Shown piece by piece: positions 58,722 to 59,304 of a stretch of 64,000 nucleotides of DNA. Source of the DNA: Eledone cirrhosa (lineage: Eukaryota). Location of the stretch: NCBI GenBank assembly GCA_964016885.1, contig CAXHJY010001127.1, positions 50,775 to 114,774 of the forward strand. The letters are read 5' to 3'. Position 1 is the first letter of the stretch. Each line of letters begins with the position of its first letter. The notes under the pieces were generated by a model. It was not told the origin of the DNA, did not search any database, and saw only the letters and a list, made by a program, of their open reading frames with translations. The position numbers and the translations under genes were made by a program.

Positions 58722-58849
58722 GAATGTATATATAGTGTATTTTGCAATACACTGTATGTTTAATTAAAAGCATTTCGAAGACCTTACGCTATTGTTTTAG
58801 AGTAGTGACAGTCTCACTTACTTCAATTTTCAGCAAACAGGGGAGGTAA

Positions 58850-58893
58850 AGCTGACGGAGCTCTGTTTCGCACTTTTGGTGCTTATCAAAGCT
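58850..58893 (-). ncRNA. Hammerhead ribozyme with compensated U3:A8 core
   Basis: Minus strand AGCT-TTGATAA-GCAC-caaaa-GTGC-GAAA-C-agagctcc-G-TC-AGCT, nested in a longer hairpin 58825-58920. Confidence 0.7.
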
Positions 58894-59304
58894 AACTACT
58901 CCGCCTGTTCGCTGAAAATTATGATGTTTGATTCTTATAGATTTCCAGTAATAATCAGGAACTGATTATACAGAGCGGTTGCCGGTCAAGCAGAAATTGA
59001 AAATTAGAATTGGTGCTCTGAAATAGCGATATATATATATGAATGTATATATAGTGTATTTTGCAATACACTGTATGCTTAATTAAAAACATTTCGAAAA
59101 CATTACGCTATTGTTTTAGAGTTTACAATAGCGTAAGGTCTTCGAAATGCTTTTAATTAAGCATACAGTGTATTGCAAAATACACTATATATATATTTAT
59201 ATATGTATATATATATATATACATATATATATACTCATTTGGAATTGACTTCATAGGGTCACTCTTGGGAGTATGTCATATAACATTTTATATATCTAAT
59301 ATTG

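What the first reader, a model, noticed from the sequence alone, without database searches (positions are those of the whole stretch)
58825..58920. Hammerhead with compensated U3:A8 tertiary pair inside a long hairpin
Seen: core UUGAUAA, perfect GCAC/GUGC stem II, GUC triplet, palindromic GAGCUC in loop 3, and stem I extended by aattttcagc.aacagg / cctgtt.gctgaaaatt. Established: C3-G8 is a tertiary Watson-Crick pair and U3-A8 can substitute. The 7421 motif (UUGAAAA) shows the same swap and the same GAGCUC loop, supporting selection for catalysis (inference).
Basis: partly seen in the sequence, partly recalled or inferred. Interest (0 to 1): 0.75.

Follow-up and report, generated by a model that had tools for sequence, protein, structure and literature searches.

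The report
Retrozyme copy with swapped hammerhead core
This is one decayed copy of a small non-coding repeat, found over a thousand times in this animal genome, that carries a hammerhead (self-cutting RNA) motif with an already described swap of two paired core letters; related copies change both letters together, so the family's RNA likely cuts itself and is likely copied back into DNA by Penelope-type retrotransposon enzymes.

Summary
The motif is real but lies on the minus strand. It is a type I hammerhead with a U3:A8 core inside a 319-nt head-to-tail, non-coding unit (family A), inserted in (TA)n as back-to-back, 5'-truncated arms with two fixed 3' ends: a non-LTR retrozyme with Penelope-type footprints. 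Genome-wide counts behind one shared anchor: U3:A8 1144, C3:G8 159, mismatched 23 of 1326. A tree without those columns puts this at one swap between two clades. U3:A8 also occurs in Hydra-like and Neptune-like Penelope elements here. The 7421 motif is the end of a Hydra-like element: its U3:A8 core is genuine, but this copy has lost 38 nt of stem II. Natural U3:A8 is published (PMC3088659, PMC4209133). This copy has a single ribozyme and a private change in helix III, so it is probably dead. Less ordinary: a young 310-nt sister family shows identical units on both arms, as expected from one circular template. A predicted off-helix would silence monomers and be released in dimers. Cleavage, RNA and the driving enzyme were not shown. 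The scan noted this family and its footprints before on other DNA of this genome.

The parts
58850..58893 (-). Type I hammerhead core: stem I (AGCU/AGCU), U3-U4-G5-A6-U7-A8-A9, stem II, GAAA, helix III, predicted cleavage after C17 (58854)
   Evidence: pairing across 116 family rows
58883..58889 (-). Core UUGAUAA with U3:A8 in place of C3:G8; family state, not a private change
   Evidence: 95 of 100 listed exact matches (of 186) read U3:A8 with positions 3 and 8 left free
58855..58866 (-). Helix III: a 12-nt perfect palindrome in most U3:A8 relatives; this copy has a private U-to-C change at 58857
   Evidence: relatives read the other base at 58857 in contigs of runs X1, X2, X4
58825..58920 (-). 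Long outer stem (about 17 bp) extending stem I beyond an internal loop; compensatory changes between subfamilies
58804..59122 (-). One 319-nt period of family A (non-coding unit, one hammerhead per unit)
   Evidence: direct repeat spacing 319; unit mapping on 60 loci
58657..59122 (-). Main arm, about 1.4 units, 5'-truncated at 59122, ending at the 'long' 3' end flush on (TA)n
59125..59210 (+). Inverted 5'-truncated arm ending at the 'short' 3' end (internal AT tract) on (TA)n
59018..59116 (-). 3'-end domain shared with the 310-nt sister family (69% identity), hairpins plus internal AT tract; candidate recognition and priming site
   Evidence: z -3.0; two compensatory pairs; strand not settled by fold energy
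7405..7492 (+). Unrelated family B copy: 3' end of a Hydra-like Penelope element with a genuine U3:A8 core and a 38-nt deletion in stem II

Best explanation
The motif is a U3:A8 type I hammerhead in one decayed insertion of a 319-nt non-coding tandem repeat, whose source copies likely cut multi-unit transcripts into unit-length RNAs that are likely circularised and likely copied back into (TA)n DNA by a borrowed Penelope-type reverse transcriptase/endonuclease. Shown: anatomy, copy number, no unique upstream sequence in 60 loci, two fixed 3' ends, random 5' ends, inverted arms, paired change of positions 3 and 8 between two clades, compensatory changes in stems II and III and the outer stem. 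From established hammerhead chemistry: cleavage 3' of C17, with 3:8 as a tertiary Watson-Crick pair that tolerates U:A. Inferred: cleavage mainly as a dimer (helix III is palindromic through its loop), circularisation by a host ligase (as shown in vitro for other retrozymes, PMC7229834), copying round the circle from two start points about 35 nt apart into the two ends of a break, and a Penelope enzyme as driver. This copy has one hammerhead and a weakened helix III, so it probably yields no circle.
For: Covariation: C3:G8 159, U3:A8 1144, C3:A8 10, U3:G8 13; 297 mismatched expected if independent. Tree of 116 rows with columns 3 and 8 masked: one 100/98 branch separates 43 rows (35 C3:G8, no U3:A8) from 73 rows (60 U3:A8, no C3:G8); the clades differ by 18.5%, copies by 3-4% from their own majority. 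Stem II reads GCAC/GUGC, GUAC/GUAC, AUAC/GUAU, GCAU/AUGC in subfamilies, 110-113 of 116 paired per position. The innermost helix III positions covary as a palindrome (AGCU to GGCC), which a monomer hairpin does not need. Ends: 28 of 36 two-armed family A insertions pair one long with one short end (the script miscalls this window's copy, so a lower bound). Sister family: 16,901 anchor matches (99 of 100 listed are the sister); 69 of 73 complete units equal their own array's haplotype, 8 haplotypes in 10 arrays, both arms share it and pair long with short ends in 6 of 6 arrays with whole units on both arms. Neptune-like and Hydra-like Penelope elements with open frames up to 938 aa (RVT_1 + GIY-YIG) are abundant and end in (TA)n.
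Against: No cleavage, RNA or circle was observed. No autonomous element sharing family A's 3' domain was found among 80 Penelope-type loci. The 2x2 table is essentially one evolutionary event, and the patterns fixed other core letters, so core conservation in my rows is partly by construction. A U3:G8 template was transmitted at least once (4 of 5 units in L172, plus L179), so a perfect pair is not strictly required for spread. The predicted lowest-energy monomer fold is not the active one. In Xenopus only 1 of 9 tested retrozyme dimers cleaved (bioRxiv 10.64898/2026.07.22.740005, part 3 read). Identical units could be helped by array homogenisation or assembly smoothing.
Confidence: 0.8

Rival explanations
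1. The unit is only the terminal repeat of an autonomous Penelope element; short copies are 5'-truncated ends, and tandems arise later by unequal crossover (the model favoured in the 2026 preprint's discussion).
For: Family B and the Neptune families in this genome are exactly such truncated ends with U3:A8 hammerheads. Xenopus retrozymes resemble pLTRs (bioRxiv 10.64898/2026.07.22.740005, part 3).
Against: In 60 loci the sequence 5' of a unit is the previous unit, an inverted arm or flank, up to 2.2 units, never a shared unique stretch. 5' ends fall anywhere in the unit; both inverted arms of sister arrays share private variants and end at fixed sites, which local crossover does not explain.
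Confidence: 0.12
2. The U3:A8 ribozyme is slow or inactive and hitch-hiked: the family spread from uncleaved tandem transcripts, and the fold serves only as a structural signal.
For: Monomer off-fold is predicted (median 3.4 kcal/mol over 46 U3:A8 rows); U3:A8 insertions sampled are short (at most 2.2 units) while the C3:G8 sister reaches 14 units; Penelope minimal hammerheads cleave weakly in vitro (PMC4209133).
Against: Both letters changed together and no mismatched clade expanded (23 of 1326); U3:A8 recurs in family B (22 of 22) and in 34 of 41 hammerhead matches in 50 GIY-YIG loci with 0 mismatched; such variants are reported active in vitro (PMC3088659 passage citing its ref 32, which I could not open).
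Confidence: 0.07
3. Chance match inside an AT-rich hairpin.
For: Rfam score is below the family threshold.
Against: 0 hits in 100 shuffles; over 1300 copies with compensatory changes.
Confidence: 0.01

Closest known systems
Metazoan non-LTR retrozymes (coral, mussel, axolotl; PMC7229834, parts 2-4 of 6 read; bioRxiv 10.64898/2026.07.22.740005, parts 1-3 of 5 read)
   Same: Type I hammerhead once per 150-450 bp tandem unit, no ORF, low GC, palindromic helix III, co-existence with Penelope elements.
   Different: U3:A8 core in the major clade; long outer stem; two-armed insertions with fixed long and short ends in (TA)n, which I did not see described for retrozymes in the parts read; expression and circles not shown here.
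Penelope-element hammerheads with U3-A8 (Schistosoma Cercyon; PMC4209133, parts 1-2 of 4 read)
   Same: Same core swap (about 1,300 hits reported there), palindromic helix III, proposed circular template for more-than-unit copying.
   Different: Those are minimal motifs in pLTRs of ORF-bearing elements; this one has a 4-bp stem II, a 12-nt helix III palindrome and sits in a non-coding unit.
Natural U3-A8 hammerheads (PMC3088659, passages read)
   Same: C3-G8 covaries to U3-A8 in several natural examples; stated to be active in vitro.
   Different: No within-family C3:G8 and U3:A8 sister clades described in the passages I saw.
EN+ Penelope-like elements: Neptune, Hydra, Naiad (PMC8557442, passages, section 11 and a supplement search)
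   Same: 5' truncation, partial tandems, inverted 5'-truncated copy, 30-40 bp tail at one end only, (TA)n targets.
   Different: Family A has no RT or GIY-YIG and no detected sequence link to the local autonomous families.

Membership tests
Type I hammerhead ribozyme | Core N3-U-G-A-N-N8-A, GAAA, UH with Watson-Crick 3:8 pair | tested here: met
   U3:A8, GAAA, GUC; paired change between clades
Type I hammerhead ribozyme | Three helices, stem I open | tested here: met
   107-115 of 112-116 rows paired in stem I positions 1-4, 110-113 of 116 in stem II, 103-116 of 114-116 in helix III positions 1-4; this copy has one mismatch in helix III
Type I hammerhead ribozyme | Rfam gathering score | tested here: not met
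   HH9 18.7 bits against 52; the model expects C3:G8 and a longer stem I
Type I hammerhead ribozyme | Loop 1-loop 2 tertiary contact | not tested
   An internal loop and a CAAAA(A) loop 2 are present in the expected places; contact not modelled
Type I hammerhead ribozyme | Self-cleavage 3' of N17 | not testable with these tools
   Needs an assay
Non-LTR retrozyme | Head-to-tail units of 150-450 bp, one type I hammerhead each, no ORF | tested here: met
   319-nt unit; tandem copies 319-328 apart
Non-LTR retrozyme | At least two consecutive complete hammerheads (the preprint's test for an active element) | tested here: not met
   This insertion has one; other family loci have two or more (L022, L086, L170, L172)
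Non-LTR retrozyme | Expressed as unit-length linear and circular RNA | not testable with these tools
   Only contigs of runs of unknown kind were available
Autonomous Penelope-like element | RT and GIY-YIG ORF | tested here: not met
   No shared upstream sequence in 60 loci; no link in 80 Penelope-type loci
Penelope-type insertion footprint | 5' truncation, inverted arm, tail on one end, (TA)n target | tested here: met
   against PMC8557442
Hydra-clade PLE (family B, 7421) | C-terminal GIY-YIG with CxCX5C linker, CxxC and CxH motifs, (TA)n target, canonical hammerhead | tested here: inconclusive
   Motifs read by eye in L234, L254, L259 match section 11 of PMC8557442; Pfam gave no hit; no tree built

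The most novel reading that the evidence does not exclude
Family A carries a built-in monomer-off, dimer-on switch, and the U3:A8 swap was fixed to tune it. The 5' half of the helix III palindrome can pair with stem I plus U3-U4-G5 over 7 bp (564 of 630 cells paired against 25-61% for slid registers; one double change in the L172 subfamily). This would silence the circular monomer, while two tandem units pair their palindromes and free both cores (L015: +2.9 kcal/mol as monomer, -7.3 as dimer; with C3:G8 put in, +5.6 and -1.9). Together with the two-armed arrays this would give a direct record of a protected RNA circle being copied by a Penelope enzyme from two fixed starts.
Probability: 0.25. 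Interest if true: 0.7.

Novelty: new member of a known kind. Interest (0 to 1): 0.4.

Why it matters
The swap itself is known. The value is as test material. Two natural sister clades, 18.5% apart, differ at the 3:8 pair, with a transmitted U3:G8 intermediate, so the cost of the swap can be measured in natural contexts. The insertion footprints bear on two points left open in print: whether animal retrozymes are copied from circles by Penelope enzymes or expand locally, and what stops a retrozyme circle from cutting itself (PMC7229834 discussion).

Tried and rejected
1) I first read the 7421 core as filler DNA because 30 short copies differ upstream; long copies showed it is the family's own core with a deletion in this copy, so that reading was dropped. 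2) A scrambled (non-permuted) hammerhead for family B, a lead from earlier scan notes: a canonical order with a long stem II fits, so it was not needed. 3) Driver search: 30 + 20 GIY-YIG loci and 30 family B loci by blastn and a profile of the 3' domain; the only clear hit (L184) is a nested family A insertion. This is a small part of 10,596 GIY-YIG candidates. 4) RNA: no RNA holder listed; contigs of X1, X2, X4 only confirm that several letters of this copy are private. 5) The whole-window Rfam scan was swamped by AT-repeat miRNA matches. 6) Window ORFs: nothing coding near the motif. 7) Strand of the 3' domain by alignment folding: the reverse strand scored lower (-24.4 against -18.3), so this gives no strand support. 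8) Alignment A1 held one wrongly placed row and was not used. 9) Subfamily labels were crude (two groups empty); only totals and the main groups are used. 10) 26 of 116 rows did not parse and are left out of the energy medians. 11) Papers on 3:8 exchange kinetics and on Penelope dimers were not held. Searches for the switch or for inverted retrozyme insertions gave nothing specific; subscription journals and preprint supplements were not searched.

Full report
Observation. The motif is on the minus strand: stem I AGCU, core UUGAUAA (58889-58883), stem II GCAC/GUGC, GAAA, helix III with GAGCUC, GUC (C17 at 58854), AGCU, inside a long outer stem 58825-58920. A strict descriptor finds 1 hit in the window and 0 in 100 local shuffles. 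The segment folds at z -8.2. Rfam's HH9 matches weakly, 18.7 bits against a threshold of 52.

Context. The genome is a 3.0-Gb animal assembly rich in microsatellites. The segment has 1893 first-look candidates. Mapping one 319-nt period on 60 loci shows head-to-tail units, 5' ends anywhere in the unit, 3' ends at two places (an internal AT tract and about 26-38 nt further), back-to-back inverted arms, and no shared unique upstream sequence. Of 36 two-armed insertions among 114 loci, 28 pair a long with a short end, 6 were called short/short and 2 long/long; the script miscalls this window's copy, whose AT tract is expanded. These features match those described for endonuclease-bearing Penelope elements: 5' truncation, inverted copy, a 30-40 bp tail at one end, (TA)n targets (PMC8557442 passages). 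The window insertion has a main arm of about 1.4 units, an 86-nt inverted arm and only one hammerhead.

The 3:8 pair. With positions 3 and 8 left free, 95 of 100 listed exact matches (186 in all) are U3:A8, 2 U3:G8, 1 C3:A8, 2 other, 0 C3:G8. Behind a shared upstream anchor the whole family gives C3:G8 159, U3:A8 1144, C3:A8 10, U3:G8 13; 297 mismatched would be expected if the two positions were independent, and some of the 23 are false matches in deleted copies. A tree of 116 rows with both columns masked splits 43 rows (35 C3:G8) from 73 rows (60 U3:A8) on one 100/98 branch; mismatched rows are scattered tips, except one small U3:G8 clade (L172, L179). So this is one compensated swap followed by expansion, not many. 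The direction C3:G8 to U3:A8 is inferred from the C3:G8 sister family and the canonical core. Stems II, III and the outer stem show compensatory changes between subfamilies. Helix III is palindromic or nearly so in all subfamilies, and its innermost positions covary (AGCU, GGCC), which points to dimer pairing (inference).

The 7421 motif. My first reading, filler DNA, was wrong. Long copies (1100 exact matches to a downstream motif) show a canonical hammerhead with a long stem II; 22 of 22 parsed copies have U3 and A8, 18 with the rest of the core intact, 8 of 30 unparsed. The window copy lacks 38 nt including the 5' strand of stem II. Upstream lies a C-terminal GIY-YIG-type frame with a CxCX5C linker, as described for Hydra elements (no Pfam hit). 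Neptune-like elements here also use the swap: 34 of 41 hammerhead matches in 50 GIY-YIG loci are U3:A8, 7 are C3:G8, none mismatched, in about five families that may share ancestry.

This copy. Against the majority of 50 U3:A8 rows it has private changes, among them U-to-C at 58857 in the palindrome and a one-base deletion in loop 2. Predicted cost of the active fold is 8.2 kcal/mol as monomer and +4.5 as dimer, against 2.9 and -7.3 for intact L015 (no tertiary or Mg2+ terms). Copies lie 3-4% from their clade majority: an older burst.

Sister family. A 310-nt unit sharing the 3' domain (69%) but with a C3:G8 minimal hammerhead was found in L068. The anchor pattern has 16,901 matches, 99 of 100 listed being this family, in back-to-back arrays of up to 14 listed units. 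In 10 arrays, 69 of 73 complete units equal their array's haplotype; there are 8 haplotypes; both arms share the haplotype and pair long with short ends in 6 of 6 arrays with whole units on both arms. One RNA circle copied round and round into both ends of a break explains this best (inference); local crossover, the route discussed in the 2026 preprint, does not give fixed ends on inverted arms. Assembly smoothing was not excluded.

Mechanism. Shown: anatomy, covariation, footprints. Established: cleavage 3' of C17; the 3:8 pair tolerates U:A (PMC3088659 passage); retrozyme monomers are circularised by RtcB in vitro and exist as circles in coral, mussel and axolotl (PMC7229834). Inferred: dimer cleavage, circles, copying by a Penelope enzyme. 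No driver sharing the 3' domain was found in 80 loci, and no RNA evidence was available.

Possible switch. In 90 parsed rows the stretch from stem I through G5 pairs with the 5' half of the palindrome at 564 of 630 cells, against 25-61% in slid registers; predicted median occupancy is 0.98 in 46 U3:A8 rows and 0.5 in 29 C3:G8 rows. Part of this follows from the palindromes themselves and from shared descent, one basal U3:A8 copy (L143) shows no penalty, and tertiary contacts could outweigh 3 kcal/mol. It stays a hypothesis.

Known or new. Natural U3-A8 is in print for several hammerheads (PMC3088659) and for about 1,300 Schistosoma Penelope motifs (PMC4209133). Tandem type I hammerhead units are non-LTR retrozymes, proposed to be moved by Penelope elements. 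I found no paper describing two-armed retrozyme insertions or the off-helix, within the limits of the library; supplements of PMC7229834 and PMC4209133 were not read, the preprint's are closed, and they may bear on this. Earlier scan notes on this genome, seen after my reading was formed, describe the same 320-bp family, the 310-nt family and the two-ended footprint; they are not independent support. Verdict: a real hammerhead with a known variant core in a new retrozyme family; interest 0.4, mostly for the natural covariation series and the insertion footprints.

Noticed in passing
L068:1-1263; L151-L159: Very young 310/311-nt sister retrozyme with C3:G8 minimal hammerhead, about 17,000 unit matches, two-armed arrays of identical units.
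   Followed up: yes
window 3493-3541, 18962-19008, 58305-58349 (+); 42118-42069, 12942-12903 (-): Five more hammerhead-like motifs with C3 cores, probably ends of other Penelope-type families.
   Followed up: no
window 29760-29900, 45480-45620, 57420-57500: Further short family B-type insertions, two of them back-to-back, truncated before the core.
   Followed up: partly
L191, L193, L206, L209, L211, L219, L225: A Neptune-like family whose U3:A8 minimal hammerhead reads GCAA instead of GAAA (A13C) in all copies seen.
   Followed up: no
L213:3309-6122 (-), L214, L215: Neptune-like Penelope frames of 844-1096 codons without stops (RT + C-terminal GIY-YIG); candidate drivers, no sequence link to family A found.
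   Followed up: partly
L225:5131-5330; L222:6610-6687: A third two-armed family with a C3:G8 hammerhead whose stem II resembles the 310-nt family's and whose tail shares a short motif with family B: possible module exchange.
   Followed up: no
L172; L179: Family A subfamily in which a U3:G8 wobble core was copied into several units and a second locus.
   Followed up: partly
window 58522-58607: Short non-repetitive stretch between two (TA)n tracts next to the element, probably the 3' end of another repeat.
   Followed up: no
window 32030-37265: Long tandem array with a unit of about 66-69 bp.
   Followed up: no
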